Below, piece by piece: positions 2,971 through 63,985 of a stretch of 64,000 bases of DNA. The notes under the pieces are model-generated. The model was not told where the DNA came from and did not search any database. It saw only the letters and a program-made list of their open reading frames with translations. The stretch is taken from the IMG/VR virus record IMGVR_UViG_2924862757_000006, one strand, 5' to 3'. Both the position numbers and the translations under genes were made by a program. How positions within the stretch are numbered: position 1 is the stretch's first letter; every line of letters starts with the position of its first letter. This stretch comes from an uncultured virus (IMG/VR IMGVR_UViG_2924862757_000006) (taxonomy: Duplodnaviria; Heunggongvirae; Uroviricota; Caudoviricetes).

Positions 2971-3002
2971 TTTGCATATTCTCTCAAACGAGAATATATT
3001 TG
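2971..3002 (+). promoter_or_regulatory. Rightward lytic promoter with operator O2 in the spacer
   Basis: TTTG (2971-74), 20 nt, TATATTTG (2995-3002); palindrome ATATTCTC-N6-GAGAATAT at 2976-2997 shares ATTCTCTCAAAYGAGA with O1. Confidence 0.8.
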
Positions 3003-3405: not shown

Positions 3406-3642
3406 ATGGATAAAAGAACCGAACTAGAAATACAGCGAGACAAATATGAAGCTGTGATTGAAGAACGAGACGCGTTGATCAACTCTTTGAGAGGTGAAAA
3501 TGAAAAACTCAAACGAGATTTAGAATCAGAACGTGGATTTTATAGAGAGAAAGTTTCCCAATGTGATGATTTGAAGAAATTTATTGAATCGCAAAGAAAC
3601 TTAATGGATATAGTTTTGAAGAACAACCAAAGTATTCTCTAA
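3406..3642 (+). CDS. Coiled-coil hypothetical protein
   Basis: Heptad-rich ORF in the early operon. Confidence 0.7.
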   Translation: MDKRTELEIQRDKYEAVIEERDALINSLRGENEKLKRDLESERGFYREKVSQCDDLKKFIESQRNLMDIVLKNNQSIL

Positions 3643-3736
3643 CCCTCACTAAAGTCAAACCAAACCGCCGGTTATCCGGTACCCAGTCCGGTCTTTGAGC
3701 CTGCCCTTGAAGGGAGACTGGGAACAACAGAGAAGA

Positions 3737-3747
3737 GTTCTTTGACA
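3737..3747 (+). promoter_or_regulatory. boxA-like antitermination element
   Basis: GTTCTTTGACA resembles rrn/lambda boxA (GCTCTTTAACA); preceded by hairpins including CCCTTGAAGGG. Confidence 0.5.
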
Positions 3748-3771
3748 TATTGGTAAAATGGTGTTTTGGAA

Positions 3772-3886
3772 GCCGACACGTGCCGAAAGGGATTACTGAC
3801 GTAGGCGGGCTTCTCAACGATATAATGCTGTGGTTAATGGTCAAGCCGTATCGTTGTAAAACTAAATCAGTTAGACGTTTGTCGGC
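3772..3886 (+). ncRNA. Multi-stem structured non-coding element
   Basis: Closing stem GCCGACA/TGTCGGC, internal stem CAACGATA/TATCGTTG, GAAA tetraloop; no credible ORF. Confidence 0.5.
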
Positions 3887-3916
3887 AAATCGAGGTATTT
3901 GCTTTATGTATATAAA

Positions 3917-4050
3917 GGTGATGTAGCTCAGGCAGGTTAGAGCGCTGTGTGTGGTGGATGGTTGAGAGTTCGAGTCTCTCAAGAAATACTCTTAGCTTAA
4001 CGGAAGAGCACCACAAGCAGAGGTCGGCGGTTCGAATCCGCCCATCGCTT
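3917..4050 (+). ncRNA. tRNA-like element with a second, permuted T-arm/D-arm unit replacing the anticodon loop
   Basis: Acceptor GGTGATG/CATCGCT, D-arm GCTC..GAGC, T-arm GGCGG-TTCGAAT-CCGCC; insert has GAGAG-TTCGAGT-CTCTC then TAGCTTAACGGAAGAGC. Confidence 0.8.
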
Positions 4051-7064: not shown

Positions 7065-7126
7065 AGGTCTGCATTGCTTAATTTTAGTATTTGTCATGTT
7101 TATTTAGCCCGGTTCGCCGGGCATCT

Positions 7127-7197
7127 GCCGGGATAGCTCAGTTGGTTAGAGCGCATGTTTCTACATGAGGTCAGCGGTTCGAATCCGTTTCCCGGCT
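7127..7197 (+). ncRNA. tRNA-like element with a 4-nt anticodon loop
   Basis: Acceptor GCCGGGA/TCCCGGC, D-arm, T-arm AGCGG-TTCGAAT-CCGTT; anticodon arm CATGT-TTCT-ACATG. Confidence 0.85.
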
Positions 7198-7293
7198 CAA
7201 CTCAATCAGAGTTAAGTAACCCGTGAGGGGGAAAATTATGTTTGTATCAATAACAATTCAATCAATGTAGCCGGAAGCGTCTGGCTACGACCT

Positions 7294-7391
7294 GAAGGAA
7301 TGGCGGAATTGGTAGACGCAAGTATGCAGATAGATTGAAGAAAGTCATACATAGGTAATCTGTCATCCCGGTTCGAGTCCGGGTTCCTTCA
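7294..7391 (+). ncRNA. tRNA-Leu-like element with an oversized anticodon loop
   Basis: Acceptor GAAGGAA/TTCCTTC, Leu-type D-arm GGCGGAATTGGTAGACGC, T-arm CCCGG-TTCGAGT-CCGGG; GTATG/CATAC stem closes a 19-nt loop. Confidence 0.8.
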
Positions 7392-7618
7392 CAGAGAATT
7401 TTTCTTTTTATGTTTAACTAATGTTGCCAGCGAAAAGGACGCTGTAGGGTTAAAGCCCCTGTTATTTGAGTTTTAATTGTTCTATACTATTCCGGTGTGC
7501 TTTGAACGGCTATCCGGAAGCAAGAAGCTCGTGAGAGTGCTATTTAATAGTTAATGTCGTGTTTTATTTTGTGTTTGTGTTCTAGGTGAATGGTTCGTGA
7601 GAATAGTTCACTTAAAAC

Positions 7619-7685
7619 GGATGGCTGGTGTAATTGGCAGCATACGCAGATATGCGTGATGTGGGTTCGATCCCCACGCCATTCA
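7619..7685 (+). ncRNA. tRNA-like element with a 4-nt anticodon loop
   Basis: Acceptor GGATGGC/GCCATTC, T-arm GTGGG-TTCGATC-CCCAC; anticodon arm ACGCA-GATA-TGCGT. Confidence 0.8.
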
Positions 7686-7786
7686 CCCTTCTGATCCTAA
7701 TTAAATTATAGTAGTTCATGAGTTTTGTTTTGTGTTTGTGATTGGGGTGTATGGTCTGTGAAGATAGTGCACCTTTTTAATTAATC

Positions 7787-7869
7787 GGGCGGATATGTAT
7801 ATCGTTGGTTGAAACTGCGGTGATGTGCACCAATATTCCGTGAGACCGGTTCGACTCCGGTTCCGTCCA
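7787..7869 (+). ncRNA. tRNA-like element with degenerate D and anticodon arms
   Basis: Acceptor GGGCGGA/TCCGTCC, T-arm ACCGG-TTCGACT-CCGGT. Confidence 0.7.
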
Positions 7870-7963
7870 CTAGCATTTACATTATGTATAAATCAGGGAG
7901 CCGTACACCCTTCAAGCGTAGCCGTTCCATAAGGTACATTGGATTATTCATTTTCTTATTTTT

Positions 7964-8003: not shown

Positions 8004-8095
8004 AAAATGGCGTTAAAATGGCGAAGTTTCTGTTTGCTAAACTTGTCAATAACGATTACCTTTACTGATGTAATAAACTAAAAGTCAAACCATTA
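8004..8095 (+). promoter_or_regulatory. Repeated phage middle-promoter/leader, copy 1
   Basis: AAAATGGCG x2, TTTG-N20-TACCTTTA, AAAGTCAAACCA leader; recurs at 15324, 20218, 23152. Confidence 0.8.
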
Positions 8096-8105
8096 ATTCA
8101 GAATT

Positions 8106-8702
8106 ATGAAAGAATTAGTAACCATTCAGCAAAAGCTGAAAGCCCCGAAAGGGCAATTTAATAAGTTCGGTAGTTACAAATACCGTAGTTGTGAGGATAT
8201 TCTTGAGTCAGTGAAACCTATTCTGACTGAAACAAAGTGTTCGTTAACTCTCAGTGATGAGATGGTGCCAGTAGGCAATAGAATTTATGTAAAAGCAACT
8301 GCCACTTTAACCAACGAAAAAGGGGAAAAAGAAATAGTGACTGCTTTTGCGAGAGAAGAGGAAACAAAGAAGGGAATGGATGGCAGCCAAATTACCGGAG
8401 CCTCATCTTCTTATGCAAGAAAGTATGCTCTTAACGGTCTATTTTGCATTGATGATACAAAAGACAGTGATGCAACTAACACTCACGATAAAGAAGACGC
8501 ACAACAGCCTGCAAAAACACCGGCTAGTATGAAGAATCCAGTTTATACTGGTGCCCAACTGAAAAAGGCTATTGCTGACATGCTTGCTGTCAAAAGCAGA
8601 GCTGAACTTGAAAAAGTATGGTATGCTAATCCGGCTATGCAAAATGATAAAGAGTTTGTAAATGCTTGTATGGAAATGGGCAAAATTTATCCTGCATCAT
8701 GA
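8106..8702 (+). CDS. ERF-family single-strand annealing protein
   Basis: LKAPKGQFNKFGSYKYRSCEDI and QITGASSSYARKYAL signatures. Confidence 0.9.
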   Translation: MKELVTIQQKLKAPKGQFNKFGSYKYRSCEDILESVKPILTETKCSLTLSDEMVPVGNRIYVKATATLTNEKGEKEIVTAFAREEETKKGMDGSQITGASSSYARKYALNGLFCIDDTKDSDATNTHDKEDAQQPAKTPASMKNPVYTGAQLKKAIADMLAVKSRAELEKVWYANPAMQNDKEFVNACMEMGKIYPAS

Positions 8703-15003: not shown

Positions 15004-15192
15004 ATGAAAGTTACAATTTACTGGGTTACTAAAGATTCGGATAAAATTGCTCGTATCAGAGAGCGTTTCGGTATTGGAACGTATCGAAGTGTGAACGGTG
15101 AAACGCCTGCTGAAATACGAGAAGAAGATATGGAACTTCTTCGGGAAACTGAAAGAAGAGGATTTATTCAAATACGTAATAAGCCCACATGA
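15004..15192 (+). CDS. Hypothetical protein
   Basis: 62-aa ORF following the loader. Confidence 0.65.
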   Translation: MKVTIYWVTKDSDKIARIRERFGIGTYRSVNGETPAEIREEDMELLRETERRGFIQIRNKPT

Positions 15193-15223
15193 AAATGGCG
15201 TTAAAATGGCGAAGTTTCTGTTT

Positions 15224-15323: not shown

Positions 15324-15415
15324 AAAATGGCGTTAAAATGGCGAAGTTTCTGTTTGCATAACTTGTCATTTTACGATAACTTTACTGATGTAATGAATTA
15401 AAAGTCAAACCAATA
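15324..15415 (+). promoter_or_regulatory. Repeated middle-promoter/leader, copy 2
   Basis: AAAATGGCG x2, TTTG-N20-TAACTTTA, AAAGTCAAACCAA. Confidence 0.8.
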
Positions 15416-15425
15416 TAATTAAATT

Positions 15426-17141
15426 ATGGAAGTACAAAACATTAGAATTGACCTTATTAGTCCTTCTCCTTTGAATCCGAGAAAGACTTTTGATGAAGCA
15501 GCTCTTGAAGAGCTCGCAAGCAACATTGAAAAGCAAGGCTTATTGCAGCCTATCACCGTCAGGGTAGCCAAATCCGAAGATTTTACTGACTTAGAGACTG
15601 GCGGTGTTACGACAATTCCCTGTTCGTATGAAATTGTTTGCGGTGAGCGTCGTTTTCGGGCTGTGTCACTTTTGAAAGCAAAGGAAGATGAAGCGAATGT
15701 TGCAAAAATCAAAGCCCATCGAAAAAAGTCGGAGAAATTTCAGACAATATCCTGCATTGTCAGAGAAATGACAGACGATGAGGCTTTTGAAGCGATGATT
15801 ACCGAGAATCTTCAAAGAAAAGATGTTGATCCCATCGAAGAAGCTTTTGCCTTTGCGCAGTTGGCTGAGAAAGGACGGACTTTGGAAGATATTGCTCTTA
15901 AATTTGGAAAGTCTACTCGTTTTGTCTTTGACCGTATAAAGCTAAACGGTCTTATCCCGGAACTGAAAGAACGTGTAAGAAATGGAGACATACCATTATC
16001 CGGTGCTATGATTCTTTCAAAACTTGACGAAGAAACTCAAAAGGAGTTCAATGAGGAAGAAGATGAACAATGCACGACATCTATGATACGTGACTATGTT
16101 AGTAATTCCTTTTTAGAACTGGATAAAGCGGATTGGATTAAAGAAGACGCAGACAATTGGGAAAATGGCGAATTTAAGCAGTGCTCTCAATGTGAATCTA
16201 ATACCTGTAATCATGGTTGTTTGTTCTATGAGATGAATAATAAGAATGCTCGCTGTATCAATGCTGCCTGTTTTTATAGAAAGCGGATTGCATATGTAAT
16301 CCGAAAGATTCTGCTTGAGAGTGAGAATCTTGTTAAAGTAGGTGAACCTTTTTCATTCGGAAAAACTGTTATTGTAGCAAAAGCAGAATATTATTGGAGT
16401 GATGAAAGAAAAGCACAATATGAAAGTGCTTTAGAAGCCGTAAAGCAACTTGGATTTGAAGTAGTTAATCCAGATGAGGTGTTTAGGAGTTTATGTTATT
16501 ATAGTGCTGATGATGAACGGACACTAAAAATGCTTGATGAAGGTGAAATTTATCGCTGTATCTCATTCTTTGGTAATTATAATCCAGAATTTAATGTAAA
16601 ATTCTATTACACAAAGAAAGAACTGGTTTCTAGTACTGCCGCTGTTGCCGATCTAAAAGAGATAGAAAGGGAAAAAATAAACGCCCAATTAAAAAGAGCG
16701 AAGGATATAGTCAAGGAGAAGTCTGCTGAAGAAATGCGTAAGTGGGCGCAAGAGAAAACATATTATCAGAGAACAAAAGAATTCTCTGAAAATGAACAAC
16801 TTGTTTTTGATGTGCTGGTTCTTAGCGGTTGTAGCAGTACTTATCTTGAAAAACTGAATTTGAAAAAATGGAATGGTGAGAGTGATTTTGTAAATTATGT
16901 CAAAAACAACCAAGCTGACCGACACCAATGGTATAGAGCCTTTATTGCTGAATGCTTATCATCGAATAATGTGAATTTCTACTCCTATTTGCAAAAGTGT
17001 CAGAAAATCCTTTTTGCAGAACAATATCCGGATGATTTCAAAGCGCTCTCTAAGAAACTTGCGGATTCATATGATAAGAAAGAAAAGAAGCTCAAAGAAA
17101 GACTGAAAGAGCTAAATAACGATAACACAGAGGAAGCCTAG
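15426..17141 (+). CDS. ParB/RepB/Spo0J-family protein
   Basis: NPRKTFD, GLLQPITVR, CGERRFRA, ENLQRKD, HTH. Confidence 0.9.
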   Translation: MEVQNIRIDLISPSPLNPRKTFDEAALEELASNIEKQGLLQPITVRVAKSEDFTDLETGGVTTIPCSYEIVCGERRFRAVSLLKAKEDEANVAKIKAHRKKSEKFQTISCIVREMTDDEAFEAMITENLQRKDVDPIEEAFAFAQLAEKGRTLEDIALKFGKSTRFVFDRIKLNGLIPELKERVRNGDIPLSGAMILSKLDEETQKEFNEEEDEQCTTSMIRDYVSNSFLELDKADWIKEDADNWENGEFKQCSQCESNTCNHGCLFYEMNNKNARCINAACFYRKRIAYVIRKILLESENLVKVGEPFSFGKTVIVAKAEYYWSDERKAQYESALEAVKQLGFEVVNPDEVFRSLCYYSADDERTLKMLDEGEIYRCISFFGNYNPEFNVKFYYTKKELVSSTAAVADLKEIEREKINAQLKRAKDIVKEKSAEEMRKWAQEKTYYQRTKEFSENEQLVFDVLVLSGCSSTYLEKLNLKKWNGESDFVNYVKNNQADRHQWYRAFIAECLSSNNVNFYSYLQKCQKILFAEQYPDDFKALSKKLADSYDKKEKKLKERLKELNNDNTEEA

Positions 17142-20217: not shown

Positions 20218-20310
20218 AAAAAAGGCGTTTAAATGGCGTCCATTCTGTTTGTCATATTCGCCTTTTTTAGCTAATTTTACAGATGTAATAAACTAAAAGT
20301 CAAACCATTA
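20218..20310 (+). promoter_or_regulatory. Repeated middle-promoter/leader, copy 3 (diverged)
   Basis: AAAAGGCG/AAATGGCG, TTTG-N20-TAATTTTA, AAAGTCAAACCA. Confidence 0.75.
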
Positions 20311-20320
20311 AATTAGAATT

Positions 20321-20896
20321 ATGATTATAAGAACAGTTTGCGGATATGATTTCTTTGAGGTGAGTTCTGCAATGCAGAAAGCCATTAGGCGAGCCGACAC
20401 CGGGGTAGCCGGCTTTTTTGCATTGGAACTTTGGGCGAGTGGGTACCGCGATTATGTGTGGAAGCGTCTGTTTACCATTAGTGCTGAAGATTGCTATGGA
20501 ATCATTACTAAAGAGATAGAAGCATTGTGGCAGGGGCATGAGCTGGTAAACAAGACTGCTACTGAACCCAAAGGGAGGATATTTGTCAGTAAAGCTGTTA
20601 TTCTCCTTTGTGAATGTAGAAAGAATCGTGATGCGGATCATTTGCAAAACTTCATCTATGATAGAAAGGATATTGATATAGAAAAGTGGATAAATGATGT
20701 CAGGCGTTACCCTATTCCTATTCCAGATTACACTTTCGATGTACATACACGAAAGGGTAAAAAACATGGGAGAACCAAAGAAGAATTCTTTCAGGAAGAA
20801 TACAAGGCGTTACAACCTCGTGCTCCTGGTTTATTCGATGATTTGGTTCAACCCAGTCAACCAAAGTTATTTAATGATGAAACCACGGCTAAGTAG
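20321..20896 (+). CDS. MgsA/RarA C-terminal-like protein lacking the ATPase domain
   Basis: SAMQKAIRRAD...RLFTISAED...IPDYTFDVHT; no Walker A. Confidence 0.7.
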   Translation: MIIRTVCGYDFFEVSSAMQKAIRRADTGVAGFFALELWASGYRDYVWKRLFTISAEDCYGIITKEIEALWQGHELVNKTATEPKGRIFVSKAVILLCECRKNRDADHLQNFIYDRKDIDIEKWINDVRRYPIPIPDYTFDVHTRKGKKHGRTKEEFFQEEYKALQPRAPGLFDDLVQPSQPKLFNDETTAK

Positions 20897-20945
20897 CTGT
20901 GGTTTCATCATTTTTCATATAAGTCAAACCAATTTAATTAAAAAA

Positions 20946-21593
20946 ATGAACACGTATTACAAATTTGCGCCAAATGTATTTTTGGCAAAGTGTGATGAGA
21001 AGCACGAAAAAGGTGAAACTATTGAAGTTACCACCAAGTATGGAAAAGAAAATGAATGTATTGTTTTCAACCTCATTTACGAACGTGATGGATTCTATTA
21101 CTACTCAATCGTACGGGCTGATGGCTTTAATGTGCAAGAGTGGGCCAAACAAAGAGCTGAACGTCGTCATGAATGGGCTACATCTGCTGTACAGAAAAGC
21201 TGTGAATATTACAACAAGTCCAATAAAGATAAGGATTTTCTTTCTCTAGGTGAGCCTATCAAAGTGGGACATCATAGCGAGAAGCGACACAGAAAAGCGA
21301 TAGATGATGCGTGGAACAATATGGGGAAAAGCGTTGAGTTTAGCGATAAGGCTGCCGAACATGAAAGAGTTGCGAAGTATTGGGAAAAAAGGGCTAATAC
21401 GATAAACTTGTCCATGCCGGAAAGTATAGATTTCTACGAACATAAGTTGGAACAAGCAAAAGAATATCACGAAGGATTGAAGTCCGGTAAGTACCGACGC
21501 GAGCATACATACGCTATGGCTTATGCCAATAAAGCAGTAAAAGAGGCTAAAAAAAATTATGACCTTGCAGTAAAGCTGTGGGGCGATGTTTAA
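20946..21593 (+). CDS. DUF3560-like protein
   Basis: GEPIKVGHHSEKRHR motif. Confidence 0.75.
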   Translation: MNTYYKFAPNVFLAKCDEKHEKGETIEVTTKYGKENECIVFNLIYERDGFYYYSIVRADGFNVQEWAKQRAERRHEWATSAVQKSCEYYNKSNKDKDFLSLGEPIKVGHHSEKRHRKAIDDAWNNMGKSVEFSDKAAEHERVAKYWEKRANTINLSMPESIDFYEHKLEQAKEYHEGLKSGKYRREHTYAMAYANKAVKEAKKNYDLAVKLWGDV

Positions 21594-22430: not shown

Positions 22431-23153
22431 ATGAAATATTATGCTTCAGTCAGCTTTGGAAAGGATTCCTTGGCAATGCTTTTCATGCTAATAGATAAAG
22501 GATATCAGTTGGATGAAGTCGTTTTCTATGATACAGGTATGGAATTTCAGGCAATCTATAACACTCGTGATGCTGTTCTTCCAATTCTTAAAAAACTTGG
22601 CATTAAATATACAGAACTGCATCCGGAGCAACCTTTTCTTTGGACAATGTTTGAAAGGCCGGTTAAGAAAAGAGGGACCAATATTATCCATAAAAAAGGA
22701 TATAGTTGGTGTGGGGGAACATGCCGATGGGGAACGAGTGAAAAACTTCGTGCGTTGAAAGCTCACACAAAAGATGGAATTGATTATGTCGGTATTGCTG
22801 CCGATGAGATGCATCGCTTTGAAAAAGAAAATCGGGCTAATCGGGTTTTACCACTTCGTGACTGGGGGGTTACAGAAGCAGATGCACTCCAGTACTGTTA
22901 TACAAAAGGCTTTGTTTGGTGTGAGGATGGAGTAAGGCTATATGAACTACTTGATCGTGTGAGTTGCTGGTGTTGTGGAAATAAGAATTTGAAGGAGTTG
23001 AAGAATATGTATTTGTACCTTCCATGGTATTGGAAAAAGCTGAAAGAACTTCAGTTAAATACCGATAGGCCCTATCGTCGTAATAGTGGAGAAACCATTT
23101 TTGATTTAGAGGAAAGATTTAGACGTGAATTGTTGAAGAAAAAAACTGATTAA
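22431..23153 (+). CDS. PAPS reductase-family (PP-loop) protein
   Basis: SFGKDS, DTGMEF, GIAADE, RVSCWCC. Confidence 0.88.
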   Translation: MKYYASVSFGKDSLAMLFMLIDKGYQLDEVVFYDTGMEFQAIYNTRDAVLPILKKLGIKYTELHPEQPFLWTMFERPVKKRGTNIIHKKGYSWCGGTCRWGTSEKLRALKAHTKDGIDYVGIAADEMHRFEKENRANRVLPLRDWGVTEADALQYCYTKGFVWCEDGVRLYELLDRVSCWCCGNKNLKELKNMYLYLPWYWKKLKELQLNTDRPYRRNSGETIFDLEERFRRELLKKKTD

Positions 23154-23241
23154 AATGGCGTTAAAATGGCGAAGTTTCTGTTTGCTAAACTTGTCAATAA
23201 CGATTACCTTTATAGACGTAAAGCATTAAAAGTCAATCAAT
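23152..23241 (+). promoter_or_regulatory. Repeated middle-promoter/leader, copy 4
   Basis: Matches copy 1 from AAAATGGCG through TACCTTTA. Confidence 0.8.
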
Positions 23242-56590: not shown

Positions 56591-57379
56591 ATGACGAATG
56601 AACAAAGCGCAACGCTGCTTCGCTTGAATAAACAGGCACAAGTAGCAGCACTGAACGCCGTTGGATTCTCGGATATCACCGAGAATTCCCGCGCATCTGA
56701 ATTTGGACAACGTATCAAGTGGGCTGCCGGCCTGCTTGATTTGAATCTTGCCTGTAACCGCATCTCGGATAACTCCAAATGGTATTTCACCCGTGAGGAA
56801 TGGGATTCCCTCACGGTTACCAACAAACAGTTGTTTATCAAACGCGGTCTTCGTATCCGGGCACATGGACACTCCTTCGTAATTTCCGCCCAGGAGTGCT
56901 ATAATGCCGACATGACTACCACCTTCTACTGGGGCGGTCAGGGCAAAGCCATAGATGGCCTGAATCAAAAAGGACTGGGCGCCATGTATGGCTGCTTCAC
57001 GGGTGAGGAAGATACTGACCTCATTATCGCAACTCTGAAAGACCAAAATAATAGTGGTGTGATCGGTGCGCCAGCTGCCGAAGCCGCCCGTGCATACCGT
57101 GCCTACACTTTGGAAAGTGACGGTATCGAGGATGAATCTAACTGGTTCCTTCCTTCATCCGGCCAAATGCTTCTGATGTACCGCTATCGCGATAAAATCA
57201 ATGAGATGATGCGTACCTTTTGGAGTAGTGACAGTATGCTGATGACTGATAAATACTACTGGTCATCAACAATTTGGGATACTAACTCCGCCTGGGCGTT
57301 CGAACTGAATACCGGGCGTATTACGAATCAAAACAAAAATTCAAATCTTCTCCATGTGAGAGCTGTTGCTTCTGAATAG
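56591..57379 (+). CDS. C-type-lectin-fold tail protein, non-diversified paralog of the DGR target
   Basis: Aligns end to end with 57405..58214 (GAPAAEAARAY, TLESDGIED, WxLP, YWSST). Confidence 0.82.
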   Translation: MTNEQSATLLRLNKQAQVAALNAVGFSDITENSRASEFGQRIKWAAGLLDLNLACNRISDNSKWYFTREEWDSLTVTNKQLFIKRGLRIRAHGHSFVISAQECYNADMTTTFYWGGQGKAIDGLNQKGLGAMYGCFTGEEDTDLIIATLKDQNNSGVIGAPAAEAARAYRAYTLESDGIEDESNWFLPSSGQMLLMYRYRDKINEMMRTFWSSDSMLMTDKYYWSSTIWDTNSAWAFELNTGRITNQNKNSNLLHVRAVASE

Positions 57380-57404
57380 TATTAACCTAAAATTATATAA
57401 TAAA

Positions 57405-58214
57405 ATGGATAAAAATATCGCTAACGCAATGCTTATGCGCCTGAATAAACAAGACCAAGTTGCAGCTTTGCAATCAATCGGTTTTACAACCGTCAATGAA
57501 AATACCCCGGCGAGTGACATCGCCAAGTATATGCAATGGGCAGGTACGCTTCTTGACCTTTCTTTGGCTACTCTCCGAATTGAAGACGGTGAACAAGTCT
57601 TTTTCACGGCTTCCGAATGGAACTCCATGAGCGCAAATAACCGCTCCAAGTATATCCGTATTGGCATCCGACTTCGTGCCGAATGCCACCAGTTCATTAT
57701 CGCCAAAAGTGACTGCGTTGACGCAGGCGGCAACAAAACGTTCAAATGGGGTGGCTACGGAACCGACTTACGCGGCCTGAAAAACTACGGTAGTGGTAAC
57801 CAAGGACTCTATGATACCTTCGACGGCAAGGAAAATACCGATGTTATAATAGAAACCCTTGCAGGCGTCAAGGACACCCAGGGAACTGTCGGCGCCCCTG
57901 CCGCCGAAGCTGCCAGAGCCTATAAAGCCTGTACGCTTGAATCTGACGGAATTGAAGATACAACCGTGTGGAACCTGCCCGCATTGGGAGAACTTATGCT
58001 TATGGCCAAGTATAAAACCGAAATCAATGAGCTCATAACTTCTATGTTTGGTAATCAAAATATGTTTACAAACGATTGGTATTGGTCTAGTACCGAATAT
58101 GACGCTTCCAGCAGTTGGGCCGTGGGCTTCCTCGGCGGCAGCGTCAACACGTACGGCCGCCAGGGCGCGTACCGGGTTCGTCCCCTCGCCGCAATAAACA
58201 CTTTATCCCTTTAA
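57405..58214 (+). CDS. DGR target protein (CLec-fold receptor-binding protein)
   Basis: YWSSTE...W.V.F...RVRP C-terminus encoded by the VR; start moved to ATG 57405. Confidence 0.92.
   Translation: MDKNIANAMLMRLNKQDQVAALQSIGFTTVNENTPASDIAKYMQWAGTLLDLSLATLRIEDGEQVFFTASEWNSMSANNRSKYIRIGIRLRAECHQFIIAKSDCVDAGGNKTFKWGGYGTDLRGLKNYGSGNQGLYDTFDGKENTDVIIETLAGVKDTQGTVGAPAAEAARAYKACTLESDGIEDTTVWNLPALGELMLMAKYKTEINELITSMFGNQNMFTNDWYWSSTEYDASSSWAVGFLGGSVNTYGRQGAYRVRPLAAINTLSL
58104..58194 (+). repeat. DGR variable repeat (VR)
   Basis: 91-nt match to the TR with 15 mismatches, all opposite TR adenines. Confidence 0.97.
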
Positions 58215-58243
58215 TTCTTTATCCCTTAGAGAGTTAGCTAAAT

Positions 58244-58265
58244 AAAAGCCCCGACAGGGGCTTTT
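58244..58265 (+). promoter_or_regulatory. DGR target-recognition hairpin
   Basis: AAAAGCCCC-GACA-GGGGCTTTT; GRNA-type loop 50 nt downstream of the VR. Confidence 0.8.
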
Positions 58266-58360
58266 CAGTTTCACTTTTTTGAGCTAAAATTGTGTTAATT
58301 GCTTTACAGTTATTAACTTTGCGCCCTCTAATACATACATTAAAATATTAAAAAATTAAC

Positions 58361-58768
58361 ATGGCACTTACACAAGACCTTCCTATATCAAATTCGATGT
58401 ATAAGCTTCTGAACCTTATCATTGATGCCCGGCAACAATTCCCCAAGGCGTTCCGGTATGAATTTGGTACGGAGTTGATGATGCTTGCCGTCCATTGTTG
58501 CGAATATATCCGTTATGCAAATACAGATATGAACCTTGAGCACCGTGCAGATTATCTGATGAAGTTTTTGTGTGAGTTTGATGCATTGAAATTACTGCTA
58601 AGAGTGTGTGAAGAACGACATTTGACCAGCCTGACTCAAACTGCCGAAATCTGTCTGCTTGCAGAGAGCATCGGTAAGCAAAGTACCGGTTGGTACAAAA
58701 AAACGGTTGCAGATCTCCAACGGCAAAAAGCTAACGGATCGCAACAAGTCGCAAAGCCGGAGTCATAA
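58361..58768 (+). CDS. avd: DGR accessory variability determinant (four-helix bundle)
   Basis: LPI...FPKAFRYEFG...IGKQSTGW; lies between VR and TR/RT. Confidence 0.88.
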   Translation: MALTQDLPISNSMYKLLNLIIDARQQFPKAFRYEFGTELMMLAVHCCEYIRYANTDMNLEHRADYLMKFLCEFDALKLLLRVCEERHLTSLTQTAEICLLAESIGKQSTGWYKKTVADLQRQKANGSQQVAKPES

Positions 58769-58782
58769 TCGCCAAGGGGATT

Positions 58783-60204
58783 ATGAGTGAGCAATTAGAA
58801 TTATTTATTGGGCATCCCCCCGGTGATGAGCCGGGAAAGACTAAGATAGCGGATGCAACGGCTTCCAGCAGTTGGAACGTGAACTTCAACAACGGCAACG
58901 TCAACACGAACAACCGCCAGAACGCGAACCGGGTTCGTCCCCTCGCCGCAACAGGTAATATAATCTATGACATACTTCTTAGCAGTATTTTCGAAGCATC
59001 CGAAGATTGTGCCAGGCAGAAAAGAACGAGTACGGATTGTGTTGAGTTCTATAATGATTATCAGTCCGCATTGGTGCGGCTATGGTATTCTATTATTTAC
59101 GGTGAATATGTACCGGACTTTTCAAAAGTATTCATACGGACTTACCCGGTATATCGGGAGGTTTTTGCCGCCGCTTTCATTGATCGTGTTGTCCATCACT
59201 GGATCGCTCTTCGTATCGAGCCGATCTTAGAGGAACGCTTCCGGGAACAAGGAAACGTCTCCAAGAACTGCCGGAAAGGTGAGGGATGCTTGTCTGCCGT
59301 GCACTATCTGAATAACATGATAGTCGAGGTCAGTGAGAATTATACTGCCGATGCGTACATTTTCAAAGATGACCTGTTCAGTTTCTTCATGTCTATCTCG
59401 AAATCGTTGGTATGGGAAATGCTGAACATATTCGTAAGGGACAATTATAAAGGCGATGATATTGAATGTTTGCTTTACCTTCTAGCCGTTACTATCTTTC
59501 ATTGTCCACAAAATAAGTGTATCAGACGCTCTCCCGTCTCCATGTGGGACAAACTTCCCAGTAATAAAAGTCTGTTTCATAATGACCCTGACAGGGGAGT
59601 GGCTATCGGGAACCTGCCGTCACAACTCATAGCTAACTTCTTGGCGTCTGTTTTCGATTATTATGTAATGGTGATGTTAGGATTCAGGCATTATGTACGC
59701 TTTGTTGATGACTTTTGTATTGTGGTGAAATCTCCGGAAGAAATATTGTCCAAAGTCCATCTTCTTGATGGTTTCCTGAAAGAACAACTCCTTTTACGGT
59801 TGCATCCACGCAAACTGTATCTTCAGCATTATAAAAAAGGAGTCTTGTTTGTAGGGGCGTTCATTTTGCCTGGTAGAATTTATGTATCTAACAGGGTGGT
59901 TGGTAACACATATAACGCTGTCAGGAAATTTAATAAAATAGCTGAAAATGGATTTGCAGAAGCGTATGTTGAGAAATTTGTGAGTACAATGAATTCTTAT
60001 TATGGCTTGATGAAACACTTTGCAACGTACAATATCCGCCGTAGAATTGCAGCGATGTTACTTCCTGAATGGTGGGAATATGTTTATATCGAAGGACATT
60101 TTGAAAAGTTTGTATTGAAGAATAAATATAACCATAGAAAACAACTAATTAAACATATCAAAAAACATGGATCAAAAAAATATCTTACCGCGTGGGATTG
60201 CTAA
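58783..60204 (+). CDS. DGR reverse transcriptase
   Basis: REVFAA.FIDRVVHH, IGNLPSQ (DGR-type SQ), YVRFVDDF, FVG. Confidence 0.96.
   Translation: MSEQLELFIGHPPGDEPGKTKIADATASSSWNVNFNNGNVNTNNRQNANRVRPLAATGNIIYDILLSSIFEASEDCARQKRTSTDCVEFYNDYQSALVRLWYSIIYGEYVPDFSKVFIRTYPVYREVFAAAFIDRVVHHWIALRIEPILEERFREQGNVSKNCRKGEGCLSAVHYLNNMIVEVSENYTADAYIFKDDLFSFFMSISKSLVWEMLNIFVRDNYKGDDIECLLYLLAVTIFHCPQNKCIRRSPVSMWDKLPSNKSLFHNDPDRGVAIGNLPSQLIANFLASVFDYYVMVMLGFRHYVRFVDDFCIVVKSPEEILSKVHLLDGFLKEQLLLRLHPRKLYLQHYKKGVLFVGAFILPGRIYVSNRVVGNTYNAVRKFNKIAENGFAEAYVEKFVSTMNSYYGLMKHFATYNIRRRIAAMLLPEWWEYVYIEGHFEKFVLKNKYNHRKQLIKHIKKHGSKKYLTAWDC
58861..58951 (+). ncRNA. DGR template repeat (TR)
   Basis: Ten AAC codons; otherwise identical to the VR. 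Confidence 0.97.
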
Positions 60205-62642: not shown

Positions 62643-63272
62643 TTGAAAAAGAATATGAATAAAAGAAACATTATAATTGTAACCATCTCTATTGCAACAA
62701 ATATAGCGTGTATTGCTTTAACATTTTGGGGAAATATTAAAAATAATGGTACTATAACAACTGATGCTTTCATTGGTATTATAGCCTCATTAATTGGAAT
62801 CTGTGTAACGATTGTTGTTGGTTTCCAAATCGCTAACTTCCTTGAGTTACGTGAAGTAAGAAAGCAAGTGGAGCAGGTAGAAAAACAACGCGCGGAGCTT
62901 GAGGCATACAAACAATCTGTTACTGGTAATCTTCATACAGCAAGAGTTGGAGTAGCAAATGCTTTTGGTATTTTATCTGTAGTAGAAAGAGGAACATTGC
63001 TTGGATTTGCGGCACGAGTAAGTTCAATTGTATGTGATAATCTATATTCAACACCTGGAGATATTTTGCTTGCGAGATATCAGCAGTTATATTCAGAAAT
63101 GTCTCATTTTCTACAAACTGATGACTGTATTGAAATGATATACCCTATCATTAATAATCTTAAATATATTGATATACCTAAAGATAAGGAGCAATATAAT
63201 GAAATAATGAAGTTGCATTTTGAAATTATTTCTGTAGTAGATAATGCAAAACAGAAAGCTGATAATAAATAG
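62643..63272 (+). CDS. Membrane protein, moron-like cargo
   Basis: Two N-terminal TMs and a coiled coil; own -7 TATATTTG at 62612-19; terminator at 63288-63315. Confidence 0.7.
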   Translation: MKKNMNKRNIIIVTISIATNIACIALTFWGNIKNNGTITTDAFIGIIASLIGICVTIVVGFQIANFLELREVRKQVEQVEKQRAELEAYKQSVTGNLHTARVGVANAFGILSVVERGTLLGFAARVSSIVCDNLYSTPGDILLARYQQLYSEMSHFLQTDDCIEMIYPIINNLKYIDIPKDKEQYNEIMKLHFEIISVVDNAKQKADNK

Positions 63273-63413
63273 AAATAATGATATGAGTAAGAGGTAGCCG
63301 AATAGCTACCTCTTTGTTTTGTAGCCCTCCCTATCAACAGCACACAATCAAACTCCTTGGAAGGGTTACATAAGATAGTACTAATATATAATTGAAAAGT
63401 TCGGTAAGGATAT

Positions 63414-63487
63414 AAAAAAAGTGAGGGGAACCACCCCCTCACCAAAGTCAAACCAAAATAATCCGAATTATGTCCGTATTATCTTGA
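63414..63487 (-). ncRNA. Predicted ~75-nt trans-acting sRNA
   Basis: -7 TATCTTTG (63493-500, minus), 5' hairpin, single-stranded seed TTTGGTTTGACTTTG, 8-bp GC terminator and U7. Confidence 0.68.
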
Positions 63488-63571
63488 TGTTGCAAAGATA
63501 CTACTATTTTTTGATAAAGCAATAAAAATCCCTGCATCGGCTCAAATGCAGGGATGGTGTCAAATAAGAGC

Positions 63572-63985
63572 TTAACTGATTTTTAATGATGTCTGATGAA
63601 TCATTTCGCTAACATCGTTCAAAGCGTTCAGGAACGTTTTGAGTTCATTGTCAGTAAAGCGAGCCTTTTTCCCGTTGACCATATTCCCGTTAATACGCTG
63701 ATATAGCCAGTTTCTACTTTTACCAAAATATTTCTTTGCAATATAACTGAATGAGATTGCTTCGGGCAATTCTCCAAGTTTATCACGTAATATGGCTTCT
63801 TCCGCTCTTTCTATATAATCATTGCAGGCGTTTACCGTTGCTTTTAGCCCAGTTTCAGATGCTTTTTTGTAGGCTTCCTTTTGGGCTTCCGGTAGTTTAT
63901 TATATTTATCCTGCATTTCCTTTTTGAAAGCTTCTTTTTCTTCTGTGGTTTTTAGTTCTTTGAATCTTTCAAAGTCAGCCTGCAT
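63572..63985 (-). CDS. DUF5053-like HTH protein; start may lie beyond the window
   Basis: ISFSYIAKKYFGKSRNWLYQRING...FT. Confidence 0.8.
   Translation of the reverse strand: MQADFERFKELKTTEEKEAFKKEMQDKYNKLPEAQKEAYKKASETGLKATVNACNDYIERAEEAILRDKLGELPEAISFSYIAKKYFGKSRNWLYQRINGNMVNGKKARFTDNELKTFLNALNDVSEMIHQTSLKIS

What the first reader, a model, noticed from the sequence alone, without database searches (positions are those of the whole stretch)
63414..63500. Prophage sRNA whose seed is antisense to the leaders of several lytic genes
Seen: on the minus strand a -7 promoter element is followed by a 5' hairpin (one G:U pair forms only on this strand), an unpaired UUUGGUUUGACUUUG stretch and an intrinsic terminator. 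Its complement (A)AAGTCAAACCA occurs at 8081-8092, 15401-15412, 20296-20307 and 20921-20931. These sites end 13, 13, 13 and 14 nt before the ATGs of ERF, ParB, the MgsA-like gene and the DUF3560-like gene. A weaker copy lies at 23229-23240. Established: Bacteroidetes mostly initiate translation without Shine-Dalgarno pairing and rely on this A-rich upstream window. Inference: an RNA layer of lysogeny maintenance or immunity that silences the middle operons independently of CI.
Basis: partly seen in the sequence, partly recalled or inferred. Interest (0 to 1): 0.88.

Follow-up and report, generated by a model that had tools for sequence, protein, structure and literature searches.

The report
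Prophage small RNA targeting many leaders
A roughly 75-base RNA gene beside the integrase of a family of gut-bacterial prophages is complementary to the start regions of many of the phage's own genes and changes in step with them, so it most likely switches those genes off by base-pairing.

Summary
Confirmed and extended. The minus-strand unit (about 63488-63414) has a Bacteroides promoter, a 5' hairpin, the seed UGGUUUGACUU and a terminator. It belongs to a family with no Rfam match: 47 non-redundant members in Bacteroidales prophages, just 3' of the integrase, with covarying stems.

In 24 prophages of this family the seed complement occurs 137 times outside the RNA gene (reversed control 2); 117 lie just before a start codon. 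Flanks covary with each phage's own RNA. In two separate sister pairs a seed base changes in the RNA and in 4 of 4 visible leaders. No relative with leaders but no RNA was found.

That match lies in the early transcript, has no start codon, and is predicted to unzip the RNA's terminator.

Best reading: a translational repressor of phage middle genes, probably in the lysogen, with the early site as sponge or attenuator. Transcription, direction and timing are untested. The scan noted analogous integrase-side RNAs on unrelated DNA.

The parts
63493..63522 (-). sigma-ABfr-type promoter of the RNA: TTG (-33), 19 nt, TATCTTTG (-7)
   Evidence: TAnnTTTG-like box in all 47 members (demanded by the extraction pattern); TTG 19-21 nt upstream in 43 of 47, not demanded
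63414..63488 (-). predicted small RNA, about 75 nt (5' end inferred, plus or minus 2 nt)
   Evidence: conservation stops at the unit's edges
63452..63488 (-). 5' hairpin; sequence varies between phages; here carries the complement of the targets' start-codon context
63445..63455 (-). seed UGGUUUGACUU; the UUGACUU part is single-stranded
63414..63443 (-). intrinsic terminator with conserved GGGUGGUUCC apex; its 5' arm is complementary to the early site
3643..3664 (+). early non-coding site: 22-nt complement (one G:U) right after the stop codon of ORF 3406-3642; no start codon follows
3737..3752 (+). boxA-like element downstream of the early site
   Evidence: resembles a host rRNA leader element; the label boxA is recalled
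2971..3002 (+). consensus early promoter facing away from the cI-like gene 2535-2912
8004..8108 (+). promoter-leader cassette with seed site 8082-8092 before the ERF gene
15324..15428 (+). cassette with seed site 15402-15412 before the ParB-like gene
20219..20323 (+). cassette with seed site 20297-20307 before the 191-aa gene
20921..20948 (+). seed site outside the cassette, before the DUF3560 gene (ATG 20946)
23152..23240 (+). cassette with a degenerate seed site; predicted binding is weak
63528..63985 (-). DUF5053 gene and its terminator, lying between the integrase and the RNA in this lineage
   Evidence: integrase follows in the matching locus L027

Best explanation
A prophage-encoded, trans-acting small RNA made from its own host-type promoter next to the integrase. 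Its open UUGACUU nucleates on AAGUCAA in phage mRNAs. On translation leaders, pairing then spreads into the 5' hairpin and over the A-rich window and the AUG, blocking initiation of the first genes of the middle operons (ParB-like, single-strand-annealing, WYL_2 and others). On one early non-coding site pairing spreads the other way and unzips the RNA's terminator. SHOWN (computationally): the gene anatomy, the family, the positions of the sites, and covariation of RNA and sites. INFERRED: transcription, repression rather than activation, and activity in the lysogen to silence leaky middle promoters (about 0.55-0.6). The role of the early site is open: sponge that frees the middle genes on induction about 0.45, attenuation target about 0.4.
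For: Stems: 91.8% of cells paired versus 77.0% in shuffles and 47-58% in slid controls; 123 two-sided changes versus 33. The 5' domain folds better on the RNA strand in 45 of 47 members. Sites: 137 exact 11-mers in 24 elements, 117 before a start codon, reversed control 2; spacing 12-17 nt in 120 of 131 leaders. Distance to the ATG is tighter than distance to the promoter (sd 1.9 vs 5.2, n=70), and 62 of 132 leaders had no cassette by my pattern. Early-site flank versus terminator arm: -33.7 vs -26.2 kcal/mol, 0 of 100,000 permutations. Without hand selection 0 of 100,000, and the cognate RNA beats the nearest relative's in 20 of 24. Leader 3' flank versus 5' hairpin: 0 of 20,000. Compensatory C:G to U:A seed change in two sister pairs, 4 of 4 visible leaders. 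The three best of 169 start regions in the window are the cassette leaders. Precedent: GibS and FopS repress Bacteroides mRNAs by pairing at the initiation region (passages of PMC7366714, PMC11697453, PMC13750123).
Against: No expression evidence: RNA-seq was held as contigs only and was inconclusive. Covariation was not significant among the 4 Prevotella-like elements (24,934 of 100,000), and cognate ranks were poor for G037, G055 and G009 leaders. The control flank also gave 0 of 20,000 with a small effect, so kinship and base composition inflate the permutation tests. 'Pairs with a two-sided change' (11) was reached by 43 of 500 shuffles. In G055 the variant seed is matched by 2 leaders but 3 other leaders differ from it. 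Some targets have full consensus promoters or lie in accessory regions, which fits lysogen silencing less simply. The compensatory cases rest on partial contigs, and for G026 the RNA gene and the leaders are on different contigs.
Confidence: 0.75

Rival explanations
1. The RNA is real and represses, but it times the lytic cycle (shuts middle genes off late) or acts only while lysogeny is being established together with integrase; it is not needed to keep the prophage silent.
For: It lies directly 3' of the integrase on the same strand, so it may be co-expressed with it. A cI-like repressor is present in the window and homologues were found in many relatives. Middle promoters have a non-consensus -7 box (TAnnTTTA in 64 of 70) and upstream repeats, so they may already be off in the lysogen.
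Against: The RNA has its own consensus host promoter, kept even when a cargo module separates it from the integrase, which predicts constitutive synthesis.
Confidence: 0.3
2. The main effect is P4 CI-like: pairing at the early site, upstream of a boxA-like element, causes premature termination of the early transcript; leader pairing is a back-up.
For: The early site is the longest, best covarying match and often has no start codon. A loose boxA-like match follows within 400 nt in 12 of 17 elements, one of them poor. P4 precedent: passage in PMC4825925.
Against: Loose boxA matches occur 3-11 times per element. Pairing unzips the RNA's own terminator wholly or partly in 13 of 17 cofolds, which is expected of an anti-sRNA rather than a target. 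Leader sites outnumber early sites 117 to 13.
Confidence: 0.3
3. The 11-mer is a DNA or mRNA site for a protein (operator or translation enhancer); the unit by the integrase is a relic or decoy copy kept similar by duplication or gene conversion.
For: Four window sites sit in one duplicated cassette. On the + strand the locus mimics a leader, with an ATG 14 nt after the motif and a 5-codon ORF. The core and the terminator loop are almost invariant.
Against: Promoter, U-run and G:U pairs all point to the antisense strand. The motif tracks the ATG, not the promoter, and is in the mRNA sense on leftward genes too. It is not enriched in the host chromosome (3 hits outside the prophage vs 5 control). 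Flanks on both sides covary with different parts of the RNA.
Confidence: 0.1
4. The RNA activates translation of the leaders, for example as an adaptor through its conserved loop.
For: The GGGUGGUUCC apex was present in 64 of 64 units found without asking for it and is unexplained.
Against: Predicted duplexes cover the AUG. Leaders are short and A/U-rich with little structure to open. No match with fewer than 2 mismatches to loop or seed in host 16S rRNA. Capsid and tail genes mostly lack the site.
Confidence: 0.07

Closest known systems
P1/P7 c4 antisense RNA (Rfam C4) and P4 CI RNA
   Same: Phage-encoded trans-acting RNA pairing with the phage's own lytic-side transcript; one variant blocks translation, the other causes termination (section 7 of PMC12197685; passage of PMC4825925).
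   Different: No Rfam match. c4 and CI act on one operon, and CI is cut from the leader it controls. This RNA has its own promoter and terminator, lies by the integrase and has several targets spread over the genome (up to about ten per phage).
Bacteroides GibS and FopS (Rfam RF04319) sRNAs
   Same: Seed plus terminator; pairing at initiation regions that lack a Shine-Dalgarno sequence; FopS uses sigma-ABfr promoters (passages of PMC7366714 and PMC11697453).
   Different: Host-encoded, FopS multicopy, metabolic targets, different seed. This one is single-copy, prophage-borne and folds its seed half into a 5' hairpin. No FopS match for the window unit.
Anti-sRNAs AsxR and AgvB of EHEC prophages (analogy for the early site)
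   Same: AsxR destabilises FnrS by binding its terminator stem-loop; AgvB mimics targets (section 7 of PMC12197685).
   Different: Those are separate small RNAs acting on host sRNAs. Here the candidate sponge is a stretch of the phage's first lytic transcript acting on the phage's own RNA; untested.
P22 sar and lambda OOP RNAs
   Same: Small phage antisense RNAs that tune lysis versus lysogeny (passages of PMC12197685).
   Different: Each has one main target in that review, encoded at the same locus (recalled for sar); this RNA acts at a distance by imperfect pairing on many targets.

Membership tests
C4 / P4 CI antisense RNA | Match to the Rfam C4 model | tested here: not met
   No hit at gathering score in the window, nor among matches up to E=10 in 63250-63600
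C4 / P4 CI antisense RNA | Encoded in, or processed from, the leader of the operon it controls | tested here: not met
   Own promoter and terminator beside the integrase, opposite strand to and far from its targets
C4 / P4 CI antisense RNA | Complementary to sites in a lytic-side transcript, with covariation | tested here: met
C4 / P4 CI antisense RNA | Causes premature termination or blocks antirepressor synthesis, giving immunity | not testable with these tools
   Needs bench work; no target was annotated as an antirepressor among the proteins scanned
FopS / GibS | Rfam RF04319 match and R1 seed | tested here: not met
FopS / GibS | Chromosomal and multicopy across Bacteroides | tested here: not met
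   One copy in 8 of 73 genomes of the genus; the phage ParB marker was found in 6 of those 8
FopS / GibS | Pairs with the translation initiation region | tested here: met
   Predicted only; covariation supports it
FopS / GibS | Bound by RbpB | not testable with these tools
   Needs CLIP or EMSA
Type I toxin-antitoxin antitoxin RNA | Overlaps, in antisense, a conserved small toxin ORF | tested here: not met
   The opposite strand holds a 5-codon ORF here and unrelated or no ORFs in relatives
AsxR-type anti-sRNA (early site) | Pairs into the partner's terminator stem | tested here: met
   Terminator opened wholly or partly in 13 of 17 cofolds; prediction only
AsxR-type anti-sRNA (early site) | Destabilises or titrates the partner RNA | not testable with these tools
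   Needs half-life measurements

The most novel reading that the evidence does not exclude
A self-contained RNA switch shared by a whole family of Bacteroidales prophages. One constitutive small RNA holds a regulon of middle genes silent. The first lytic transcript carries a co-evolving anti-RNA that unzips its terminator and removes it, turning repressor inactivation into a sharp threshold. The family-wide seed would also let a lysogen silence incoming relatives whatever their repressor type.
Probability: 0.4. Interest if true: 0.92.

Novelty: new variant of a known kind. Interest (0 to 1): 0.82.

Why it matters
Phage small RNAs that govern lysis versus lysogeny are known from a few proteobacterial phages and mostly act on one target. 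This would be a multi-target, phage-internal RNA regulon in Bacteroidales, a main group of gut bacteria, where translation starts without Shine-Dalgarno pairing. The targets and natural compensatory alleles are already known, so mechanism and role can be tested directly with reporters and a deletion. It may help explain how these prophages stay silent, and offers a compact RNA repressor part for Bacteroides.

Tried and rejected
(1) Expression: 24 runs listed, 4 laid, all contigs. Two isolate transcriptomes had a hole over the unit and two other runs covered it; contigs give no strand, ends or level, so no conclusion either way.
(2) Host-wide translation enhancer: rejected; G001 has 3 exact hits outside the prophage, none before a start codon, against 5 for the reversed control.
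(3) Relatives with leaders but no RNA: I gave the model 25 of the 80 ParB loci (those on long contigs); 11 had the RNA. The 7 negative records rated at least 90% complete all lack the integrase end, one stopping about 80 nt short by alignment. The 7 less complete negatives were not examined. An order-wide search found the ParB marker in only 2 of 401 genomes, too few to add power.
(4) Pairing with 16S rRNA: no match with fewer than 2 mismatches.
(5) An 18-nt boxA pattern found no rRNA-linked hit; the resemblance appeared only on reading the rRNA leader.
(6) The chromosomal G165 unit, first taken as a seed-swapped relative, is better read as FopS-like (30 bits, gathering score 56).
(7) Cultured relatives: none; best terminase identity 43% in the phage collection.
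(8) The whole contig behind L642 was not held, so only its 10-kb flanks were seen.
(9) Literature: ten searches and the supplements of PMC7366714 (9 files searched, file 9 unreadable) showed no description of this RNA. Most subscription papers and bioRxiv supplements are not held, so a listing as an unnamed transcript cannot be excluded.

Full report
1. Observation. The window is a Bacteroides-type prophage: cI-like gene 2535-2912, early and middle genes, terminase, tail, lysis genes. The unit described is present. On the minus strand, TTG-19 nt-TATCTTTG (63522-63493) is followed by a hairpin, UGGUUUGACUU (63455-63445) and a terminator (63443-63414). It lies between the terminator of the DUF5053 gene and the convergent terminator of gene 62643-63272. 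The four leader sites and their spacings are right. Three corrections matter. The sites at 8082, 15402, 20297 and 23230 are copies of one ~90-bp promoter-leader cassette. Only UUGACUU is unpaired. A sixth site, 3643-3664, is a 22-nt complement with one G:U, right after the stop codon of the second early ORF and with no start codon behind it.

2. A family. Record titles name Bacteroides, Phocaeicola, Prevotellaceae, Muribaculaceae and other Bacteroidales. In the rows that I could see (the output was cut), the unit lies directly 3' of the integrase on the same strand, or behind a small cargo module. Both stems covary: 91.8% of cells paired against 77.0% in shuffles and 47-58% in slid controls, with 123 two-sided changes against 33; the count of pairs with such a change, 11, was reached by 43 of 500 shuffles. 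The 5' domain folds better on the RNA strand in 45 of 47, and a TTG lies 19-21 nt before the -7 box in 43 of 47. Seed and terminator apex were found independently of each other: 64 of 64 hairpin-bearing loci among 115 found without the loop had it, and 92 of 99 terminator-bearing loci among 112 found without the seed had the canonical seed. Rfam has no match. A covariance model found one copy in 8 of 73 genomes of the genus; the phage ParB marker was in 6 of the 73, all among those 8.

3. Targets. I read 24 elements of this phage family (window plus 23; terminase 58-85% identical to the window's). I left out G001 (near-identical), G005 and G026 (RNA gene not on the fetched stretch) and G040 (fragment). 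Outside the RNA gene they hold 137 exact 11-mers in 1.54 Mb: 117 before a start codon, 13 at early non-coding sites, 7 other; reversed control 2. In 23 elements (G018 dropped by my pattern) 120 of 131 leader sites lie 12-17 nt before the ATG. Three targets recur: ParB-like (21 sites), WYL_2 (21) and a single-strand-annealing-type cluster that includes ERF (20). The motif keeps its distance to the ATG better than to the promoter and is not enriched in the host chromosome.

4. Covariation between RNA and targets. (a) Early site against the terminator's 5' arm, 17 hand-picked sites: cognate rank 1 in 12 of 17; mean -33.7 against -26.2 kcal/mol, 0 of 100,000 permutations; 1 of 100,000 within 9 elements grouped by eye as Muribaculaceae-like; not significant within 4 Prevotella-like ones. 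Taking the best site without selection gives 0 of 100,000, and the cognate RNA beats that of the nearest relative in 20 of 24. (b) Leader 3' flank against the 5' hairpin: -24.4 against -20.7, 0 of 20,000, rank 1 in 11 of 23 but poor in three. The control flank also passed with a small effect, so these tests carry some kinship signal. (c) Seed: G182 and L642 have A in place of G in the RNA and U in place of C in 2 of 2 visible leaders each. Their closest partners among those compared are G034 (integrase 95%) and G026 (75%), which keep G:C at the orthologous leaders, while cross-pair identities are 64-69%. This points to two separate switches. G055 is mixed. (d) No relative with leaders but no RNA was found.

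5. Mechanism. Cofolding gives two modes. On the four exact leaders the seed and 5' hairpin pair through the AUG and the terminator stays shut; ParB, ERF and 20321 rank first of 169 start regions (-18.6, -16.0, -14.5 kcal/mol; next -6.9). The 20946 start was not in that list and scored -12.5 separately. The seed site itself lies at -24 to -14, just upstream of A-12/A-13, which stimulate initiation in Flavobacterium (passages of PMC6847099); the 5' domain supplies the overlap. Repression by pairing at initiation regions is established for Bacteroides GibS and FopS. On the early site the terminator is opened wholly or partly in 13 of 17 elements. Strand exchange into a stable stem gains little energy, so selection for it suggests a purpose (inference). 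It could remove the RNA, as AsxR does to FnrS, or act on the nascent early transcript ahead of a boxA-like element, as P4 CI does. I put real pairing RNA at about 0.9, translational repression at 0.75, action in the lysogen at 0.55-0.6, sponge 0.45 versus attenuation 0.4. The conserved terminator apex is unexplained.

6. Expression. Public RNA-seq was available only as contigs and settles nothing.

7. Comparison and novelty. It works like c4/CI in purpose and like GibS/FopS in mechanism, but fails the membership tests of both. What I saw of each paper: PMC12197685, passages and section 7; PMC4825925, PMC7366714, PMC6847099, PMC11697453 and PMC13750123, passages found by term; supplements of PMC7366714 by term search; all others, search listings only. 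The 2025 phage-sRNA review has no occurrence of 'Bacteroid', and the 2026 commensal-sRNA review none of 'phage'. Ten searches found no description; subscription papers and bioRxiv supplements were out of reach. The scan's notes hold no look-alike DNA but list analogous integrase-side RNAs in other genomes, which I did not test. The labels boxA and middle promoter are recalled or inferred, not tool results.

8. Verdict. A real, uncatalogued prophage small-RNA family with a multi-gene internal regulon and a second, non-coding partner site. New variant of a known kind; interest 0.82.

Noticed in passing
window 8004-8064, 15324-15384, 20219-20279, 23152-23212 (first 34 bp again at 15190-15223): Repeated middle-promoter cassette: tandem AAAATGGCG repeats, then TTTG, 19 nt, TAnnTTTA. 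Found across the phage family; the -7 box ends in A in 64 of 70 cases, suggesting an unidentified phage activator.
   Followed up: partly
L286:4067-4330 and similar ORFs in many Muribaculaceae-type loci: An 88-aa stand-alone RNA polymerase alpha-CTD-like ORF (PF03118, E=8e-10) directly after the RNA's terminator on the same strand.
   Followed up: partly
L415:12231-12560 and homologues: A WYL_2 (Sm-like fold) gene is a core target, found in 22 of the 24 elements searched but not in the window; a candidate RNA-binding partner.
   Followed up: partly
window 3665-4050 and 7100-7870: Non-coding early region with stable hairpins, a boxA-like element and several tRNA-like sequences (Rfam tRNA hits 3917-4050, 7127-7197, 7294-7391; ARAGORN calls one with an odd anticodon loop).
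   Followed up: partly
L514:1495-1600 (G165): Chromosomal FopS-like unit with the same terminator apex; 5 of 9 loose matches to its seed complement are starts of long host ORFs.
   Followed up: partly
L528 (G181): Unit with the same terminator apex but another seed in a different phage; an exact 14-nt match covers an ATG elsewhere in that contig.
   Followed up: partly
G035, G053, G007 leftward genes; G053, G054, G056 genes after the lysis cassette: Accessory genes, including a YspA/SLOG-family gene, carry the seed site, some behind consensus host promoters. They could be transcribed but held silent until the RNA is titrated; speculative.
   Followed up: no
window 56591-60204: Diversity-generating retroelement-like module: two Lcl C-terminal domain genes, bAvd-like gene and reverse transcriptase.
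   Followed up: no
L316 (G018): A family member sits in a MAG titled Lachnospiraceae; probably a binning error, as the other titled members seen are Bacteroidales.
   Followed up: no
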